Shown here: positions 22,587 to 44,379 of the stretch, one piece after another
How the letters are laid out: each line of letters starts with the position of its first letter
Position numbering within the stretch: the stretch's first letter is position 1
IMG/VR virus record: IMGVR_UViG_3300016476_000657
Span: 6,583-70,582 of that record
Origin: a virus
Direction: 5' to 3' (one strand)
Length of the DNA stretch: 64,000 bases
Program-made: the position numbers and the translations under genes
The notes under the pieces: model-generated
Database searches by the model: none
What the model was told of the DNA's origin: nothing
What the model saw: only the letters and a program-made list of their open reading frames with translations

Positions 22587-22960
22587 ACGAGAATGTAAAG
22601 AACCTGGCTAAGCGAGCTGGATTTGTATTGTGGGGCAACGAAGATTGGAACCCCGGTGATGTTATTGATTGGGCTAGTCGTTATGACGAACAGTTTATTA
22701 AGTATACTCAACTGTTAGTACACGAAGTGCTTGCACTACAAGCCGCCGGAACTGATGTACTAACTTACTTTGGCATCACTGAAACAGATGGTAAGGAATC
22801 TATCGACGTTGACTTTAGTGATGAGGAACTGCTACTGTATATGCGGTTAGCACACGAAAAGGATATTACGTTTAACAAGTTCATTGAACTTGCACTACGT
22901 AAAGTTATTGATGAGGAAAATCTAAAGGATGACGATTTTGAAAGCTCAGAAGGCTGCTAA
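22583..22960 (+). CDS. Hypothetical phage protein
   Basis: Paralogous N-terminus plus ribbon-helix-helix-like C-terminus (AHEKDITFNKFIELALR). Confidence 0.6.
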   Translation: MNENVKNLAKRAGFVLWGNEDWNPGDVIDWASRYDEQFIKYTQLLVHEVLALQAAGTDVLTYFGITETDGKESIDVDFSDEELLLYMRLAHEKDITFNKFIELALRKVIDEENLKDDDFESSEGC

Positions 22961-23279
22961 AGGTATTATGCTCCAGGGTGAGTGGAAGGATGCTAAATCA
23001 TTCCACGTGCCTTGCGAGTGTACTGACCCTGATCATGGGGTAGACATGTGGATTGAAGTTGACCACGAGCAGGATATCGATGCTGTTAATGTAACCTTCT
23101 ATGTAAAGACTACAAACGAGTTTTGGCGTGAAGGTTATAGCAGGATTCGCGCAGCATGGGATATTCTCACCAAAGGAGTGCATACTCAATCCAACACATT
23201 GATTTTGGATAAGCAGTCTGCACTTAATATGGCTGAAGCAATCAAACGTACAGTAAAAGACTTGACAGTATCCAAATAA
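22929..23279 (+). CDS. Hypothetical protein
   Basis: 116-aa ORF with CECTDPDH. Confidence 0.6.
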   Translation: MTILKAQKAAKGIMLQGEWKDAKSFHVPCECTDPDHGVDMWIEVDHEQDIDAVNVTFYVKTTNEFWREGYSRIRAAWDILTKGVHTQSNTLILDKQSALNMAEAIKRTVKDLTVSK

Positions 23280-23290
23280 CTTGCTATAAT
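23262..23290 (+). promoter_or_regulatory. Sigma70 consensus promoter
   Basis: TTGACA-17-TATAAT. Confidence 0.8.
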
Positions 23291-23296
23291 AGTAGC

Positions 23297-23785
23297 ATGA
23301 CTAGTAATAATGGAAATCACGTGAAGAAGATCTTTTACGAGAAGGTTGGTCGCCGTTACGTTCCTGTAGCGGAGTATGACAGTGACTACCTCGATAGTTT
23401 TCCAAAAGGCAATCATCTAGTGATGTGCTATCCAGGTGGAACAACTCGTCGCTTTAACATTGAGCCTAACTATGCTGCAATGATTGCTGCTGGTCGCATC
23501 GCTGAAGATGCTATGTGTAAGGCAATGAGTAAAGCTAGCGAACTACGTCCTGCTAAGGCACCCATTACTCCGGAACAAAAAGCTGCATGGGAAAATCTTG
23601 CAGCGGCGTTCGGCGAAGAGTTAAGTACGCTGTATGGATCAAGCACTGCCGACATTGCACAAGCCGGTGTTAAAGCTATGATAGAAGAAGCAGACAAGCT
23701 GATGCAGAATCCAAATGTGCGTGAAGCGTTTGAACACTTTGTTGTAGTGTGCAAACTTACCAAGGAACAAACAAATGAAAGTTAA
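23297..23785 (+). CDS. Conserved hypothetical phage protein
   Basis: YEKVGRRYVPVAEYD...GNHLVMCYPGG. Confidence 0.65.
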   Translation: MTSNNGNHVKKIFYEKVGRRYVPVAEYDSDYLDSFPKGNHLVMCYPGGTTRRFNIEPNYAAMIAAGRIAEDAMCKAMSKASELRPAKAPITPEQKAAWENLAAAFGEELSTLYGSSTADIAQAGVKAMIEEADKLMQNPNVREAFEHFVVVCKLTKEQTNES

Positions 23786-24521
23786 TATTGGCCCATATAC
23801 AAATTGGTTCGGACCATACCAGTTGGCAGAAAAACTCTGCTTCTGGGCTAAGCCAGTAAAGGATGAGTGGGGCATTGAAAGCAAGCCTGACTGGGTACAC
23901 AGTTTTGGTGAGTGGCTTGCCCACGGCAGTGTGCAACCAGACCCTACTCCAGATAATCCTGTTAGCCGCTGGGATGAAGATCGACCTAATACTTGGCTGT
24001 ATAATTTTCTACTTTGGATTGACAGCAAGAAGAAGCGTAAGGTACAAGTACGTATCGACAAGTGGGACACATGGAGTATGGATCATACTCTAGCATATAT
24101 TGTGCTGCCTATGCTTGAGCAACTGCAAAAGACCAAGCACGGCGCACCTTTTGTAGATGACAAGGATGTTCCTAAGCATCTACGTAGCACTAGCGCACCT
24201 CCACTCAGCCAAGAGGATATTGATTGTGGTGCAGTGGATGACCTGCACTTCAAACGTTGGGAGTGGGCTCTAGATGAAATGATCTTTGCATTCCGTAGTA
24301 AGATAGATGACAACTGGGAAAATCAATTCTTCACAGGCGAGTCAGAGTGGATCAGTACTGCTACTGAGTTTTACGAAAACGGAAAGCCTAAGTTGTTTCA
24401 AATGTCTAAAGGTCCTAACGATACTAGCAAGGTTGATATGAAGGGACTTAAGGCTTACCAAAAGCGTATCAGCAACGGCTTTAGGTTGTTTGGGAAGTAC
24501 TACGAGAATCTTTGGGATTAA
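23775..24521 (+). CDS. Conserved hypothetical myovirus protein
   Basis: IDKWDTWSMDHTLA...KHGAP...LDEMIFAF...NGFRLFGKYYENLWD. Confidence 0.7.
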   Translation: MKVNIGPYTNWFGPYQLAEKLCFWAKPVKDEWGIESKPDWVHSFGEWLAHGSVQPDPTPDNPVSRWDEDRPNTWLYNFLLWIDSKKKRKVQVRIDKWDTWSMDHTLAYIVLPMLEQLQKTKHGAPFVDDKDVPKHLRSTSAPPLSQEDIDCGAVDDLHFKRWEWALDEMIFAFRSKIDDNWENQFFTGESEWISTATEFYENGKPKLFQMSKGPNDTSKVDMKGLKAYQKRISNGFRLFGKYYENLWD

Positions 24522-24538
24522 TTTAAAAGGAGATGTAA

Positions 24539-24766
24539 ATGGCAACAGCAAGTGTGTTAACATCAAAAGTTCGACCAGAAGTTGAGTTTGATCCTTCTAA
24601 CTCTGAGCATCGCCGCTTATACGGTTTATTCTTAAAGAATCGTAGCTGGCGCCATTCTCCGATTCGTTTTATTACTCGTCCAAGTTACGGCATTGACAAA
24701 GGTGTTATTGATCGTAAGCTGCTCGAGTACTATACTAACAATGAATTTCCTAGCATCCAGGAATAG
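24539..24766 (+). CDS. Hypothetical protein
   Basis: GGAG RBS; FDPSNSEHRR motif. Confidence 0.6.
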   Translation: MATASVLTSKVRPEVEFDPSNSEHRRLYGLFLKNRSWRHSPIRFITRPSYGIDKGVIDRKLLEYYTNNEFPSIQE

Positions 24767-24813
24767 TAGTTGTGTACGATATCTGCTTGTAAATAGAAGC
24801 AATAGGATAACAT

Positions 24814-25035
24814 ATGGCTGTTAAGAGTACAACACAAATGACCAAAGGTGAACTTATTTCTCTCTTGCGGGAGAAAGATAAGATCATTGCTGACCTTAAC
24901 GCCAGGATCGATGACCTAGAAAGTTTGGCTATTACAAGTCAAGCTATTCCTCTAGATGCTGACAGTAGTCGTTTGCTCACACTAATGAATCAACGAATCA
25001 AAGCATTAGAAGAACAAATAAATGCAAAAAAATAA
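24814..25035 (+). CDS. Hypothetical coiled-coil protein
   Basis: AGGA RBS; TGTAAATA late-like box at 24788. Confidence 0.55.
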   Translation: MAVKSTTQMTKGELISLLREKDKIIADLNARIDDLESLAITSQAIPLDADSSRLLTLMNQRIKALEEQINAKK

Positions 25036-25396
25036 AGTTTTTGTTTACGGTACACTAAAAAAGGATAACAGCACTAGAGGTCTTAACCTTTGGAGCGATG
25101 CTACCTACGTAGGTGATGCTGTAACACACGATCAATTTAATTTGTGGGACATGGGTTCCTTCCCGGCAGTTACACTAAAAGGTAATGCTAGTATTAGTGG
25201 AGAAGTGTGGGAAGTAAGCGACGAGGTATTTGAGAGCCTCGATCGTATCGAAGGCTACCCAGAGTTTTACGAGCGAACAGAAATTGAAACTGCATACGGT
25301 AAAGCATGGATGTATTACATTCCAGATATTGAACCTTATTACCGGGCAGAGCTAATCGAACCATTTAACAACACAGCATCATGGAGAGCACAATGA
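25022..25396 (+). CDS. Gamma-glutamylcyclotransferase (AIG2-like)
   Basis: VFVYGTLK, ISGEVWEV, LDRIEGYPEFYER. Confidence 0.85.
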   Translation: MQKNKVFVYGTLKKDNSTRGLNLWSDATYVGDAVTHDQFNLWDMGSFPAVTLKGNASISGEVWEVSDEVFESLDRIEGYPEFYERTEIETAYGKAWMYYIPDIEPYYRAELIEPFNNTASWRAQ

Positions 25397-25800
25397 ATCA
25401 AGTTGACCTAAACCGATATATGGATTTTGTACGAGCAGTTACTAGCAAGGAATCAGATAACTTTGATCACCTTCAAGCTCGCGCACAAGAACTACGTAAC
25501 GAAACATTTAATCCTGCACTGCTACTTACTGCCGCTATTGGTCTTGGTAGCGAAGGTGGAGAGTTTCAGGAGATTGTAAAGAAGATCATGTTCCAAGGCA
25601 AACCAGTTAATGATGAATCGGTTTTCCATATGAAGCGTGAACTTGGTGACATCATGTGGTACTGGATCAACGCTTGCCGCGCACTAGGTCTAGAGCCTAA
25701 CGATGTTATTGCAGAAAATGTACGCAAGTTAGAAGCACGTTACCCAGGCGGACAGTTCGATGTACACTACAGCGAAAATCGTAAGGCGGGGGATCTCTAA
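25393..25800 (+). CDS. MazG-like NTP pyrophosphohydrolase
   Basis: GLGSEGGEFQEIVKK, KRELGDIMWY, ENVRKLEARYP. Confidence 0.85.
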   Translation: MNQVDLNRYMDFVRAVTSKESDNFDHLQARAQELRNETFNPALLLTAAIGLGSEGGEFQEIVKKIMFQGKPVNDESVFHMKRELGDIMWYWINACRALGLEPNDVIAENVRKLEARYPGGQFDVHYSENRKAGDL

Positions 25801-25988
25801 TGGCAGAGTATATTATGTGCCACAAAAGGCAGAAGGACTATAACGGGAAGGGCGCATTCACAATCCTTCGCAATAGCGAACCGCCTGAAGGCATGGTTTT
25901 TCTAAAGGTTAACGCTAGCGGAATGCCGACATACTGCTATCCAGAAGACCTGGAGTATTTTCAGAATCGTAAGGAAGGCGACCTATAA
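25800..25988 (+). CDS. Hypothetical protein
   Basis: TAATG coupled at both ends. Confidence 0.5.
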   Translation: MAEYIMCHKRQKDYNGKGAFTILRNSEPPEGMVFLKVNASGMPTYCYPEDLEYFQNRKEGDL

Positions 25989-26209
25989 TGAAAAAGGTTG
26001 AGAAGTTAATTGCAGAGCATTTTGGTTTAGGTAAGATCCATGAAAGTGATCTGCTCCAAGAAGACCTTGGTGGCGATGCCCTAGATGTTATTGAACTGAT
26101 AATGACCTTAGAAGAAGAATTCAATATTGAGATCTCCGATGAGGAAGCAGAAGACATGCGAACAGTTCAAGACGTGTATGACTGTGTTGCTAAGAAAAGT
26201 TTAGCCTAA
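25988..26209 (+). CDS. Acyl carrier protein homolog lacking the phosphopantetheine serine
   Basis: EDLGGDALDVIELIMTLEEEFNIEISDEEAEDMRTVQDV; Ala (GCC, 26078-26080) where ACP has DSLD. Confidence 0.8.
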   Translation: MKKVEKLIAEHFGLGKIHESDLLQEDLGGDALDVIELIMTLEEEFNIEISDEEAEDMRTVQDVYDCVAKKSLA

Positions 26210-26583
26210 TGGAACTGTTACTCATAACCTTATTGCTAATTAAACACACCGTTGCAGATTTCTTTCTGCAACGGTCATTCATGTTTAAGGACAAACATAT
26301 CTACGCAGGCCGTGGCGGCCTGGTTCATGCCGGGTCGCATGGACTACTAACAGCAATTGCAGTTGCAATCTGCGTTCCTACTCCACTTCAACTATCAATG
26401 GCACTAGCTGCTGGTATGCTTGATATGGTGATTCACTACCATGTTGATTACATTAAAAGTAATTGGAATGTTAGAACCAAAGCCTCGCCTAGTGAAACAC
26501 GTTACTGGTATGCGTTTGGCTTAGATCAATTAGCGCATTTCTTAACTTATGTGCTTATTGTATATACAATTTTTATAAGGTAA
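26209..26583 (+). CDS. DUF3307-like membrane protein
   Basis: KHTVADFFLQ...HAGSHG...HYHVDY...GLDQLAH. Confidence 0.7.
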   Translation: MELLLITLLLIKHTVADFFLQRSFMFKDKHIYAGRGGLVHAGSHGLLTAIAVAICVPTPLQLSMALAAGMLDMVIHYHVDYIKSNWNVRTKASPSETRYWYAFGLDQLAHFLTYVLIVYTIFIR

Positions 26584-26587
26584 AATT

Positions 26588-27379
26588 ATGAAGCGTATTC
26601 TTTTATGCGGCTTGCCAGGCTCTGGCAAAACAACTCTTGCAAAGCGACTTGTTGAAACACTAGGCAATGCTGACTGGTATAATGCGGATGCAGTCCGCGA
26701 ACAGTTTAAAGATTGGGATTTTAGTCCCGAAGGCAGAGCTCGACAGATGAAGCGTATGCAAGACTTTACTCGTAAGAGTGTTGCCAAAGGTCGCTACGGT
26801 ATTGCAGACTTTGTATGTCCTACTCAAGCACTGCGAGATGAGTTCAAAGCTGATTATGTAATCTGGATGCACACTATTAAAGAGGGACGTTACGAAGATA
26901 CAAATAAAGTTTTCGAAGCACCTACTAATGTCAACATGGAGATTACTGCCGACGAATGGTGGAATGATGAATGGGTCGAGCATTGGGCCAGATTACTAGC
27001 AGTTGACATTAAGGATCACGAATTCCAAACTAAGTTGCCTACTACACAGATGCTGGGCCGGTTCCAACCATTTCATCCAGGTCATCGTGCGCTGTTCGAA
27101 CGAGCCCTTGCCAAGCACGGTCAGGTTGCTATTCTAATTCGCGACATGCCTATTACAGAAAGCAATCCTTGGCAGCAGGATGATATTGCTACTAACATCG
27201 AAAAAGAACTATATGAGTACGCAGGTAAGTTTAGAATTTATCCTGTGCCTAACATTATGAACATCACATATGGACGCGATGTAGGATATAAGATTGAGCA
27301 AGAAGTTTTTGACGATGCTATCCACAGTATCAGTGCTACAAAGATTCGCGAGCAGATGAGAAAGGATGGTAAGTTATAA
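26588..27379 (+). CDS. APS-kinase-like P-loop domain fused to an HxGH nucleotidyltransferase domain
   Basis: GLPGSGKTT, NADAVR, DWDFSPEGRARQ; C-terminal GRFQPFHPGH and ISATKIR. Confidence 0.75.
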   Translation: MKRILLCGLPGSGKTTLAKRLVETLGNADWYNADAVREQFKDWDFSPEGRARQMKRMQDFTRKSVAKGRYGIADFVCPTQALRDEFKADYVIWMHTIKEGRYEDTNKVFEAPTNVNMEITADEWWNDEWVEHWARLLAVDIKDHEFQTKLPTTQMLGRFQPFHPGHRALFERALAKHGQVAILIRDMPITESNPWQQDDIATNIEKELYEYAGKFRIYPVPNIMNITYGRDVGYKIEQEVFDDAIHSISATKIREQMRKDGKL

Positions 27380-27597
27380 TGGTAGGACGTAGACGACACA
27401 TAGCTAAGGCTATTACTTGGCGCTTGCTAGGAACACTAGACACTATTCTTATCAGTTGGTTCTTTACTGGTTCACTTGCTATTGGTGCAGCTATTGGTGG
27501 CTTTGAAGTGATCACAAAAACTATTTTGTATTACTTCCACGAACGTGCTTGGTATAATTACATTCCGTACGGTTTAGAAAAAGGCGTTGACAAGTAG
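27379..27597 (+). CDS. DUF2061-like small membrane protein
   Basis: RHIAKAITWRLLGTLDT...LYYFHERAW. Confidence 0.75.
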   Translation: MVGRRRHIAKAITWRLLGTLDTILISWFFTGSLAIGAAIGGFEVITKTILYYFHERAWYNYIPYGLEKGVDK

Positions 27598-27615
27598 ACT
27601 CAACTGTTATATAAT
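27587..27615 (+). promoter_or_regulatory. Sigma70 consensus promoter
   Basis: TTGACA-17-TATAAT. Confidence 0.8.
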
Positions 27616-43573: not shown

Positions 43574-44379
43574 TGGCTCTCAAAGAAGGTGATCTTAAAG
43601 ACGTAGTTCTAAAGAAAATTAGCATTGATGAGTTCGAACCTAAGACAGGCGATGCTAAAGATGTGTTAGTAATGGGATTCCAAGTTACTGAAAGTAATGT
43701 GGGCGATGATCTATACGGTTTCCTAAATGGATCAAACGTTACCATTAGAGATATTGAAGTAAGCCCAAACCCAAACGATGATGGCTTCTACATGGTATTC
43801 GTTGAACTTGACCGTAACGATAGTGTTGTAGAATCTATCAAAACATTATTACGTGATACTGAACGCCTAGCAGGTAAGTTACGCTGGGAAGCGAAAACTT
43901 ATCTAAATGATGACTATCTTCCTCTATCAGAAGATGAGATTTATCAGTACATCATTACTGATCCAAGTAACTATATGACCAGAGAAGAATTTGAAGCTAA
44001 ACGAGAAGTTGAAGAAGCAGCACGTTTAGAAGAAGAACAGCGTCTAGCTGAAGAAGCAGCAGCACAAGATGCAAGTAATAATATTCTAGAATTTTTAAAA
44101 GATAGCAATCTATTACAAGCCGGCGTGAACGAAGGACGCCTTGTATTACAAGATTCGAGAAACGTTATTGCATTAGAAATTGTTGATTTTGGACCAAGCG
44201 AAGATGTAATGCTCAAGCACGGCATTAAAGAAAGTGCTATTAAATTTGATTTCGATAAGGTACTATTTGGTAGATTAAAAAGTATGTTAGGTGAAATGGC
44301 AGCATTGCCAATTGACCAGTACGTTGTTATCTATAATCCAGCAAAGCAAGATAATGTCTTGCTTGCTAAAGCAACCTAA
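43573..44379 (+). CDS. Conserved hypothetical late protein
   Basis: TAATG coupling; ISIDEFEPKTGD...VFVELDR. Confidence 0.7.
   Translation: MALKEGDLKDVVLKKISIDEFEPKTGDAKDVLVMGFQVTESNVGDDLYGFLNGSNVTIRDIEVSPNPNDDGFYMVFVELDRNDSVVESIKTLLRDTERLAGKLRWEAKTYLNDDYLPLSEDEIYQYIITDPSNYMTREEFEAKREVEEAARLEEEQRLAEEAAAQDASNNILEFLKDSNLLQAGVNEGRLVLQDSRNVIALEIVDFGPSEDVMLKHGIKESAIKFDFDKVLFGRLKSMLGEMAALPIDQYVVIYNPAKQDNVLLAKAT

What the first reader, a model, noticed from the sequence alone, without database searches (positions are those of the whole stretch)
25988..26209. ACP homolog that cannot be phosphopantetheinylated (DSL to DAL)
Seen: the ACP signature is otherwise well kept (DLGGD-A-LD..ELIM.LEEEF.IEISDEEAE...TVQD), but residue 31 is Ala (GCC, 26078-26080). 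Known: the Ser of DSL is the sole 4'-phosphopantetheine site; apo-ACP accumulation inhibits glycerol-3-phosphate acyltransferase in E. coli; ACP also binds SpoT, MukB and AcpS. Inference: a permanent apo-ACP mimic acting as a decoy for lipid synthesis, stringent-response or ACP-dependent defence proteins. Caveat: TCC to GCC is a single base change.
Basis: partly seen in the sequence, partly recalled or inferred. Interest (0 to 1): 0.7.

Follow-up and report, generated by a model that had tools for sequence, protein, structure and literature searches.

The report
Serine-less carrier-protein mimic behind phage MazG
An uncultured giant phage carries a well-kept copy of the bacterial acyl carrier protein that lacks the one serine needed to carry anything, so it most likely works by docking onto other proteins; the gene is optional, always travels with the phage's MazG gene, and its target is unknown.

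Summary
ORF 25988-26209 (+) encodes a 73-aa protein with an acyl carrier protein (ACP) fold: Pfam PP-binding 1e-9, AlphaFold pLDDT 93.5, TM about 0.9 to E. coli AcpP. Ala31 (GCC) sits where Ser36 takes phosphopantetheine.

It is not a sequencing slip. All 39 close relatives (59-100% identity) have Ala, using both GCC and GCA codons. More distant members have Gln, Asp or Pro, never Ser. dN/dS is 0.08-0.24. All 80 best hits in 185,579 prokaryote species genomes keep Ser, so the clade is known only from viral and metagenomic DNA.

The AcpP docking face is invariant (D35, D38, E41, M44, E47, E48 in E. coli numbering).

New here:
- The gene lies directly behind a MazG pyrophosphohydrolase in 14 of 14 testable loci.
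- It is optional. The nearest relative, L203, lacks exactly the 414-bp block (62-aa ORF plus ACP-like gene), and 75 of 76 nearest testable MazG loci lack it.
- Its alleles are shuffled among near-identical MazG genes.
- It sits in a unit opened by a perfect sigma-70 promoter.

Best reading: a cofactor-free docking protein, either a decoy for host ACP clients or a MazG partner. The target is unknown. This scan found the same clade on other DNA (e1-5677112).

The parts
25988..26209 (+). ACP-like gene, 73 aa, no phosphopantetheine serine
   Evidence: ORF; Pfam PP-binding 1e-9; AF2 pLDDT 93.5; Foldseek to AcpP, TM about 0.9; dN/dS 0.08-0.24
26078..26080 (+). GCC = Ala31, the position of AcpP Ser36
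   Evidence: Sequence; alignment to 1l0i; Ala in 39 of 39 clade members; GCA, GCC or CAA in related loci
25971..25978 (+). AAGGAAGG ribosome-binding site, 9 nt before the ATG; the upstream stop overlaps the start (TAATG)
   Evidence: Sequence; the same junction is seen at the MazG 3' ends of ACP-bearing loci
25956..25987 (+). Copy of a MazG 3' end (..Y-F-Q-NRKEGDL-stop) forming the last 8-10 codons of the 62-aa ORF
   Evidence: 21 of 22 nt identical to the MazG tail of L280, against 21 of 26 to the window's own MazG tail; a 35-nt match to L283
25800..25988 (+). 62-aa ORF with no family match, between MazG and the ACP-like gene; part of the indel block
   Evidence: No Pfam or PHROG hit; absent from L203 together with the ACP-like gene
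25801..26214 (+). 414-bp block that is present here and absent from the nearest relative L203
   Evidence: L203 is collinear with window 22897-25800 (76.7% nt) and 26215-27372 (80.7% nt), with nothing in between
25381..25800 (+). MazG-type nucleotide pyrophosphohydrolase, the constant upstream neighbour
   Evidence: Pfam MazG 2.6e-8; PHROG 229 2.1e-48; directly upstream of the ACP-like gene in all 13 related loci that hold upstream DNA
26209..26583 (+). DUF3307 membrane protein; its start overlaps the ACP-like stop (TAATG)
   Evidence: Pfam DUF3307 3.6e-13; follows MazG directly in L203
23262..23290 (+). Perfect sigma-70 consensus promoter (TTGACA-17-TATAAT, with TG) that opens the unit holding the gene
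   Evidence: 12 of 12 match; 3 perfect sites in the window against 0.01 expected
27587..27615 (+). Next perfect sigma-70 consensus promoter, marking the start of the following unit

Best explanation
The gene encodes a folded ACP homologue that can never receive phosphopantetheine, so it is not a carrier. It keeps, unchanged, the acidic helix II/III face with which bacterial AcpP docks onto its client enzymes. The most likely mechanism is this. The gene is expressed, probably early, from a host-type promoter and is translationally coupled to the genes upstream. The protein then occupies the AcpP-docking site of one or more host ACP clients without delivering an acyl group. That would block or re-tune an ACP-dependent host process, such as lipid synthesis, cofactor attachment or an SMC-type ATPase. 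It is an optional accessory gene that moves between phages as a small cassette lying just behind MazG.

Shown here: the fold, the loss of Ser, purifying selection, the conserved docking face, the restriction to viruses, the MazG linkage, and the optional and mobile nature of the gene.

Inferred: that it binds a host ACP client, and which one.
For: - Fold and family.
- Loss of Ser is fixed. Ala in 39 of 39 close relatives. Gln, Asp or Pro in more distant members. Synonymous GCC/GCA codons. dN/dS 0.08-0.24.
- Docking residues D35, L37, D38, E41, L42, M44, E47, E48 and D56 (E. coli numbering) are 100% conserved in the clade. D35, E41 and E47/E48 are the ion-pair residues AcpS needs (bioRxiv 10.1101/2025.01.28.635281).
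- The core and pocket are repacked: L15F, F28L, A34G, V40I, Y71C.
- Virus-only: 80 of 80 prokaryote-genome hits keep Ser.
- Optional and mobile: a clean 414-bp indel against L203; the slot behind MazG is hypervariable; ACP alleles are incongruent with MazG, for example MazG 97% against ACP 59% identity. This pattern is typical of host-interaction genes.
- Host-type perfect promoters bracket the unit.
- No phosphopantetheinyl transferase gene and no second carrier-protein gene in the six partial phage records searched.
- Precedents for ACP acting without its cofactor: apo-ACP inhibits PlsB more strongly than holo-ACP (PMC3896788); apo-AcpP activates MukB as well as holo-AcpP (PMC8602292); Plasmodium mACP (PMC8547962).
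Against: - No binding partner was identified and no complex could be modelled with these tools.
- The host is unknown, so it is unknown whether PlsB, MukB or similar clients are present.
- The invariable MazG linkage, and the degenerate ACP-like domains fused to MazG-like enzymes in two Rhizobiales phages, point equally to a phage-internal partner.
- Only about 20-30% of any carrier genome is available, so the absence of PPTase or fab genes is weak evidence.
- Early expression is inferred from promoter consensus alone.
Confidence: 0.45

Rival explanations
1. It is an accessory subunit, regulator or targeting module of the phage MazG pyrophosphohydrolase. The two proteins are made together and act as a pair. 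The ACP-like protein would dock on MazG, or tether MazG to something else.
For: - Directly behind MazG, with start/stop overlap, in 13 of 13 related loci that hold upstream DNA; 190 bp behind MazG in the window, still carrying a MazG-tail junction.
- The linkage holds in two different genome layouts.
- Independent hint: Rhizobium phage P106B gp67 (246 aa) and Agrobacterium phage 7-7-1 gp087 (371 aa) are MazG-like enzymes carrying a degenerate, serine-less ACP-like domain. Foldseek E=8e-3, TMq 0.71; hhalign probability 75%, E=2.5e-5; Pfam PP-binding_2 E=0.06 at the matching place.
Against: - 75 of the 76 nearest MazG loci with downstream DNA lack the gene.
- MazG of L238 (no ACP) and L280 (ACP) are identical at 135 of 137 residues and differ only in the tail, so MazG is not adapted to a partner.
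- ACP alleles of 43-59% identity sit behind MazGs of 93-97% identity.
- The helix II motif has not drifted from the bacterial AcpP consensus, as one might expect for a new partner.
- No fusion exists within this clade.
- The fused domains in P106B and 7-7-1 have lost the acidic helix II, and their homology is only moderately supported.
Confidence: 0.3
2. It is a generic acidic decoy, such as a DNA or nucleotide mimic of the kind used against restriction enzymes or SMC complexes. The ACP fold would be reused only as a negatively charged scaffold.
For: Net charge -13 over 73 residues, pI 4.2. It is a small accessory gene in a variable slot. Phages do use small acidic mimics, for example against MukBEF (title of PMC7617805).
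Against: What is conserved is not charge in general but the exact AcpP docking motif and its hydrophobic residues (L37, L42, M44, F50, I54), while other acidic positions vary (E49K, E57 variable).
Confidence: 0.07
3. It is still a carrier, with the acyl group or cofactor attached elsewhere, for example on the nearly invariant Cys66.
For: Cys66 replaces AcpP Tyr71 in 37 of 38 clade members.
Against: Cys66 is Gln in L125 and Leu in P0038, and is absent from several more distant members. It lies in helix IV, facing the core position of Tyr71. No PPTase, acyl-ACP synthetase or fab/PKS gene was seen in the available DNA. I know of no precedent.
Confidence: 0.03
4. It is a sequencing error or a decaying pseudogene of an ordinary phage ACP.
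Against: Ala in 39 of 39 relatives from independent samples; two Ala codons in use; dN/dS 0.08-0.24 with saturated synonymous sites; intact ORF, ribosome-binding site and a confident fold.
Confidence: 0.01

Closest known systems
Bacterial type II acyl carrier protein AcpP (E. coli; PDB 1l0i, 1l0h, 1t8k), especially its apo form
   Same: Same four-helix fold (TM about 0.9, rmsd 0.7-1.0 A; 44-46% identity). Same DxLD..E..M..EE docking helix, and the same helix III acidic residues.
   Different: Ser36 is Ala (Gln, Asp or Pro in relatives). The loop between helices I and II is 2-3 residues shorter. The core is repacked (L15F, F28L, A34G, V40I, Y71C). The gene is found only in viruses, behind MazG, and not among fab genes.
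Plasmodium falciparum mitochondrial ACP, which lacks the phosphopantetheine group yet binds Isd11-Nfs1 (PMC8547962)
   Same: A natural ACP that has lost its cofactor site and works purely as a protein-binding subunit.
   Different: An independent origin in a eukaryotic organelle. Its partner (an LYR protein) is known; here no partner is known and no LYR-type gene was seen.
Serine-less ACP-like proteins of Vi01/ViI-like (Ackermannviridae) phages: earlier notes of this scan; BFVD E1XTD1 'Acyl carrier protein [Salmonella phage ViI]'
   Same: Phage ACP-fold proteins with a non-Ser residue at the attachment site. Loci L314-L319, from 157-161 kb genomes, read DLGGDDLD. ViI appears among the structural matches.
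   Different: A separate, very long branch in the tree, with Asp or Glu instead of Ala and no MazG within 2.5 kb.
Ordinary phage-encoded ACPs (PHROG 5934; for example roseophage prophage acpP-fabF-fabG sets, PMC8224337; jumbophage ACP modules, PMC13573597)
   Same: Same family. 34 of 41 viral ACP loci fetched with the clade profile keep Ser. They are annotated as auxiliary metabolic genes.
   Different: Those keep the DSL serine, and some sit beside fab genes, so they can be true carriers. This clade cannot.
MazG-like enzymes with an added ACP-like domain: Rhizobium phage P106B gp67, Agrobacterium phage 7-7-1 gp087
   Same: A serine-less ACP-like module physically joined to a MazG-type pyrophosphohydrolase, and optional among close relatives: homologues in RHph_X2_24, OLIVR4 and Milano match only from residue 96.
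   Different: It is a fusion and not a neighbouring gene. The MazG belongs to a different subfamily. Helix II is degenerate and the acidic motif is lost. Homology is only moderately supported.

Membership tests
Acyl carrier protein, type II (Pfam PF00550 PP-binding; AcpP) | Sequence match above the curated family threshold | tested here: met
   38.9 bits against a cut-off of 20.8
Acyl carrier protein, type II (Pfam PF00550 PP-binding; AcpP) | Four-helix ACP fold | tested here: met
   AF2 pLDDT 93.5; TM 0.85-0.91 to AcpP structures
Acyl carrier protein, type II (Pfam PF00550 PP-binding; AcpP) | Conserved Ser of the DSL motif that takes 4'-phosphopantetheine | tested here: not met
   Ala31 (GCC) here; Ala, Gln, Asp or Pro in all relatives of the clade
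Acyl carrier protein, type II (Pfam PF00550 PP-binding; AcpP) | Acidic helix II recognition surface | tested here: met
   D35, D38, E41, E47 and E48 equivalents are invariant
Acyl carrier protein, type II (Pfam PF00550 PP-binding; AcpP) | Genomic company of fab, PKS, NRPS or PPTase genes | tested here: not met
   Neighbours are MazG, DUF3307, a kinase, and NAD and GMP genes. No PF01648 hit in six partial phage records. This is weak evidence, because the records are only 3-29% complete.
Acyl carrier protein, type II (Pfam PF00550 PP-binding; AcpP) | Carries acyl groups as a thioester (holo form exists) | not testable with these tools
   Needs mass spectrometry of the expressed protein
Cofactor-independent ACP subunits (Plasmodium mACP type; AcpP on MukB) | Attachment site lost, or dispensable for function | tested here: met
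   Site lost. Precedents read in PMC8547962 and PMC8602292.
Cofactor-independent ACP subunits (Plasmodium mACP type; AcpP on MukB) | Stable binding to a defined partner protein | not testable with these tools
   No multimer modelling or interaction data available
MazG-linked serine-less phage ACP clade (this scan, e1-5677112) | Non-Ser residue at the site, plus an AE(H/Q)FG motif in helix I and a shortened loop | tested here: met
MazG-linked serine-less phage ACP clade (this scan, e1-5677112) | Gene lies just downstream of a cyanophage-type MazG gene | tested here: met
   13 of 13 related loci directly. In the window the gene lies 190 bp downstream and keeps a MazG-tail junction.

The most novel reading that the evidence does not exclude
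The serine-less ACP is a portable adaptor. It uses the universal AcpP docking helix to bring, or couple, the phage's MazG nucleotide pyrophosphohydrolase to a host ACP-client protein, or else to shut that client down. That would make ACP mimicry a new class of phage host-takeover or counter-defence device that links nucleotide and alarmone control to the host's lipid-status sensing.
Probability: 0.2. Interest if true: 0.8.

Novelty: new variant of a known kind. Interest (0 to 1): 0.55.

Why it matters
Databases label these genes 'acyl carrier protein' and count them as lipid-metabolism auxiliary genes. For this clade that label is wrong, because the protein cannot carry anything.

A protein that keeps only the docking face of the most connected small protein in bacterial metabolism is a ready-made probe for which ACP-dependent step a phage needs to block or hijack. 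The gene is optional, exchanged between phages and fast-diverging outside its docking face, and these are hallmarks of host-interaction or counter-defence genes.

Finding its target would show a new route of phage takeover. It might also explain the still disputed role of phage MazG. I found no paper describing serine-less phage ACPs in the searchable library.

Tried and rejected
The genomic context of the closest relatives P0002-P0037, including one on a 333-kb contig, could therefore not be read. Context came from the search for related loci instead.
- tblastn against 50,697 cultured-phage records found nothing at E<=1e-3 and only weak Ser-ACP hits at E<=10. There is no cultured relative.
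- The search for longer or fused forms of this clade found none.
- The protein atlas gave only generic ACP clusters.
- PPTase (PF01648) was absent from the six partial phage records. This is weak evidence.
- A SpoT decoy was considered and down-weighted, because SpoT is reported not to bind apo-ACP.
- Sequencing error or pseudogene was rejected.
- The antisense ORF 25915-26157 (80 aa) is a shadow of the + strand gene.
- The promoter-like site 25960-25989 overlaps the start codon and cannot serve this gene.
- The hairpin 26248-26275 lies inside the DUF3307 coding region and has no T tail. I do not take it as a terminator.
- I first thought the NRKEGDL tail marked ACP-bearing MazGs. It does not: 24 of the 80 nearest MazG loci have it, and only one of those 80 carries the ACP-like gene. 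Only the duplication of a MazG tail in front of the window's gene stands.
- The ACP tree (82 columns) is too weakly resolved to name the Ser-bearing sister group.

Full report
**1. The observation**

The + strand ORF 25988-26209 starts with ATG and encodes 73 residues. It has a strong ribosome-binding site (AAGGAAGG, 25971-25978), and its start overlaps the stop of the upstream ORF (TAATG).

It matches Pfam PP-binding at E=1e-9, with 38.9 bits against a cut-off of 20.8. It matches PHROG 5934 'acyl carrier protein' at 8.4e-19.

HMMER alignment to E. coli ACP (PDB 1l0i) puts query residue n opposite E. coli residue n+5. Ala31 (GCC, 26078-26080) therefore occupies the place of Ser36, the phosphopantetheine site.

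An AlphaFold2 model built on 50 sequences has mean pLDDT 93.5 and four helices, with Ala31 as the first residue of helix II. Foldseek places it on AcpP structures at TM 0.85-0.91 and rmsd 0.7-1.0 A.

**2. It is not an error**

A search of 5.8 billion proteins returned 39 close relatives at 59-100% identity. Every one reads GDALD. Of the other 81 listed hits, all at 56% identity or less and including Buchnera AcpP, 79 read DSLD; one reads ESLD and one DLLD.

In DNA loci the Ala codon is GCA where the window has GCC. Two viral loci (L001, L002) have CAA, which is Gln.

A profile search of 1.84 billion cluster representatives found further stand-alone members with Ala (P0121, P0123, P0129, P0138, P0142), Pro (P0130), Asp (P0139) and Gln (P0214). 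More viral loci have Gln (L283) and Asp (L293-L295).

Pairwise dN/dS over 60 codons is 0.08-0.24, and synonymous sites are saturated between lineages.

The loss of Ser is therefore old, fixed and maintained in a protein under purifying selection. Raw reads could not be examined.

**3. Where the clade lives**

A scan of one genome for each of 185,579 prokaryote species used the literal peptide GDALD[VI]IEL as one of its patterns. It returned only ordinary ACPs: the 80 best hits all carry Ser, and the best is 57% identical.

Members of the clade came only from viral contigs and metagenomes. No cultured phage has one.

The window lies in a 71.7-kb IMG/VR record judged 19% complete. The related records are 3-29% complete at 10-100 kb. 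These are therefore fragments of phages of roughly 350 kb, with a long tail sheath.

**4. What is kept and what is changed**

I compared 38 clade members with 80 Ser-bearing ACPs.

*Invariant in both sets (E. coli numbering):*
- the docking face of helices II and III: D35, L37, D38, E41, M44, E47, E48, I54, D56 (L42 is invariant in the clade, 97% in the Ser set);
- this includes D35, E41 and E47/E48, the ion-pair residues that AcpS needs to recognise ACP (bioRxiv 10.1101/2025.01.28.635281).

*Specific to the clade:*
- S36A;
- K8E, Q14H, L15F, A26D, F28L, A34G, V40I and Y71C;
- a loop between helices I and II that is 2-3 residues shorter.

Several of these positions line the core where AcpP hides the acyl chain. 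I read this as repacking after the loss of the cargo. That is an inference.

**5. Context: MazG**

Every related locus that holds upstream DNA has a cyanophage-type MazG pyrophosphohydrolase directly upstream, and the ACP-like start overlaps the MazG stop. These are 13 loci: L001-L004, L006, L123-L125, L198, L280, L283, L293 and L295. L005 and L294 have no upstream DNA.

In the window a 62-aa ORF lies between the two genes. Its last 22-35 nt are a copy of a MazG 3' end (..NRKEGDL-stop). That copy is 21 of 22 nt identical to the MazG tail of L280, against 21 of 26 to the window's own MazG tail. The gene therefore keeps its usual junction even here.

The dependence runs one way:
- Of the 80 nearest MazG loci, 76 have at least 400 bp downstream, and only one of them (L280) has the ACP-like gene.
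- MazG of L238 (no ACP) and L280 (ACP) are identical at 135 of 137 residues.

**6. An optional, mobile gene**

The nearest relative, L203, is collinear with window 22897-25800 (76.7% nt identity) and 26215-27372 (80.7%). It goes straight from MazG to DUF3307. The 414-bp block 25801-26214, which is the 62-aa ORF plus the ACP-like gene, is a clean indel.

The other lineage has the gene order: unknown 386-419-aa gene, MazG, slot, head-tail adaptor-like 261-aa gene, dNMP kinase, tail sheath. Its slot holds the ACP-like gene, or unrelated 55-70-aa ORFs, or nothing.

MazG and ACP-like histories disagree:

| Locus pair | MazG identity | ACP-like identity |
|---|---|---|
| L123 / L125 | 97% | 59% |
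| L003 / L283 | 93% | 43% |
| L006 / L280 | 74% | 91% |
| Mean of 45 pairs | 79% | 60% |

Deeply diverged ACP-like alleles (Ala, Gln and Asp types) thus circulate among near-identical MazG backgrounds, while the docking face stays constant.

A weakly resolved tree groups 19 serine-less sequences, both Ala and Gln types, at SH-aLRT 91. It does not rule out a single origin.

**7. Expression**

Perfect TTGACA-17-TATAAT promoters sit at 23262 and 27587. The window holds three such sites against 0.01 expected. They bracket an 11-gene + strand unit that holds a gamma-glutamyl cyclotransferase-like gene, MazG, the 62-aa ORF, the ACP-like gene, DUF3307, a kinase/cytidylyltransferase-like gene and DUF2061.

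Transcription by unmodified host polymerase, that is early in infection, is inferred from this and not shown.

**8. Mechanism**

*Shown:* the protein is a stable ACP fold that cannot be a carrier, and it keeps the client-docking face.

*From the literature:*
- ACP docks on many enzymes through helix II. It also binds AcpS, PlsB, MukB, IscS and SpoT (PMC3340395).
- Apo-ACP inhibits glycerol-3-phosphate acyltransferase more strongly than holo-ACP does, and SpoT does not bind apo-ACP (PMC3896788).
- MukB ATPase is stimulated equally by apo- and holo-AcpP (PMC8602292).
- Plasmodium mACP works without the cofactor (PMC8547962).

*My preferred reading (0.45):* a host-directed decoy that occupies ACP-docking sites. 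I prefer it for two reasons. The motif has not drifted from the bacterial consensus. And the gene behaves like an accessory host-interaction gene.

*The main rival (0.30):* a partner of MazG. It rests on the invariable linkage and on a further hint. Rhizobium phage P106B gp67 and Agrobacterium phage 7-7-1 gp087 are MazG-like enzymes that carry a degenerate, serine-less ACP-like domain. The support is Foldseek E=8e-3, hhalign probability 75% and E=2.5e-5, and Pfam PP-binding_2 at E=0.06 in the matching place. That domain is again optional among close relatives.

*Minor rivals:* a generic acidic mimic, attachment through Cys66, and an artefact.

**9. Comparison and novelty**

The protein is a homologue of AcpP but fails the defining test of an ACP, the serine. 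It should not be annotated as a carrier.

It works like the cofactor-independent uses of ACP (MukB, Plasmodium mACP), but it is not related to them by descent in any way I could show.

A second phage group, from 157-161 kb genomes (L314-L319, reading DLGGDDLD), lost the serine separately and has no MazG nearby. Earlier notes of this scan file that group under Vi01-like phages.

I reached the MazG linkage before reading it, and I add the following:
- the clean indel against L203;
- the MazG-tail scrap in front of the gene;
- the hypervariable slot behind MazG;
- the incongruence between ACP-like alleles and MazG;
- the Gln, Asp and Pro variants;
- the dN/dS values;
- the promoters;
- the fusion hint.

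I found no publication on serine-less phage ACPs.

**Verdict:** a real and interesting variant of a known family with an unknown target. Interest 0.55.

Noticed in passing
window 25800-25988: The 62-aa ORF has no family match, and its last 8-10 codons are a diverged copy of a MazG 3' end (..YFQNRKEGDL against MazG ..YSENRKAGDL). It looks like a chimera left by the recombination that brought in, or rearranged, the ACP-like cassette.
   Followed up: partly
L003, L238, L248, L249, L261, L273, L277, L280, L283, L293 (slot between MazG and the 261-aa adaptor-like gene): This is a hypervariable slot in a jumbo-myovirus lineage. It holds the ACP-like gene, or a 59-aa ORF (MKPDDTDSK...), or a 55-aa ORF, or a 64-aa membrane-like ORF plus a 70-aa zinc-ribbon ORF, or nothing, between genes that are otherwise well conserved.
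   Followed up: partly
L331 (KF977490) 43584-44324 minus strand; L332 (NC_019519) 643-1758: The MazG-like pyrophosphatases of Rhizobium phage P106B (246 aa) and Agrobacterium phage 7-7-1 (371 aa) carry an unannotated, degenerate, serine-less ACP-like domain ahead of the MazG domain (..IEKEFNIDLDDEFAKHWETVADV..). Relatives such as RHph_X2_24, OLIVR4 and Milano lack it.
   Followed up: partly
L314, L315, L318, L319 (157-161 kb viral genomes), about 2366-2686: A separate group of ACP-like proteins with Asp at the attachment site (DLGGDDLD). It sits on a very long branch and has no MazG within 2.5 kb. It is probably the Vi01-like phage group noted earlier in this scan.
   Followed up: partly
L008 7809-8213 (64.7-kb viral contig): Another viral ACP-like protein with Glu at the site (DLSFDELD). 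It is not part of the MazG-linked clade.
   Followed up: no
window 26588-27597 and L203 3299-4090: A 263-aa protein with an APS-kinase-like P-loop domain and a short cytidylyltransferase-like segment is followed, with overlap, by a 72-aa DUF2061 membrane protein. Window 26215-27372, which covers DUF3307 and nearly all of the 263-aa gene, is about 81% nt identical to the nearest relative L203. It lies upstream of the SLOG / GMP reductase / NAD synthase set.
   Followed up: no
window 26248-26275: A perfect 11-bp-stem hairpin (ACCGTTGCAGA...TCTGCAACGGT) lies inside the 5' part of the DUF3307 coding region, 40 nt after the ACP-like stop. It has no T tail and its function is unknown.
   Followed up: no
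window 23262, 27587, 45778: Three perfect TTGACA-17-TATAAT promoters on the + strand, against 0.01 expected by chance. This suggests strong host-polymerase (early) transcription units in this jumbo phage.
   Followed up: partly
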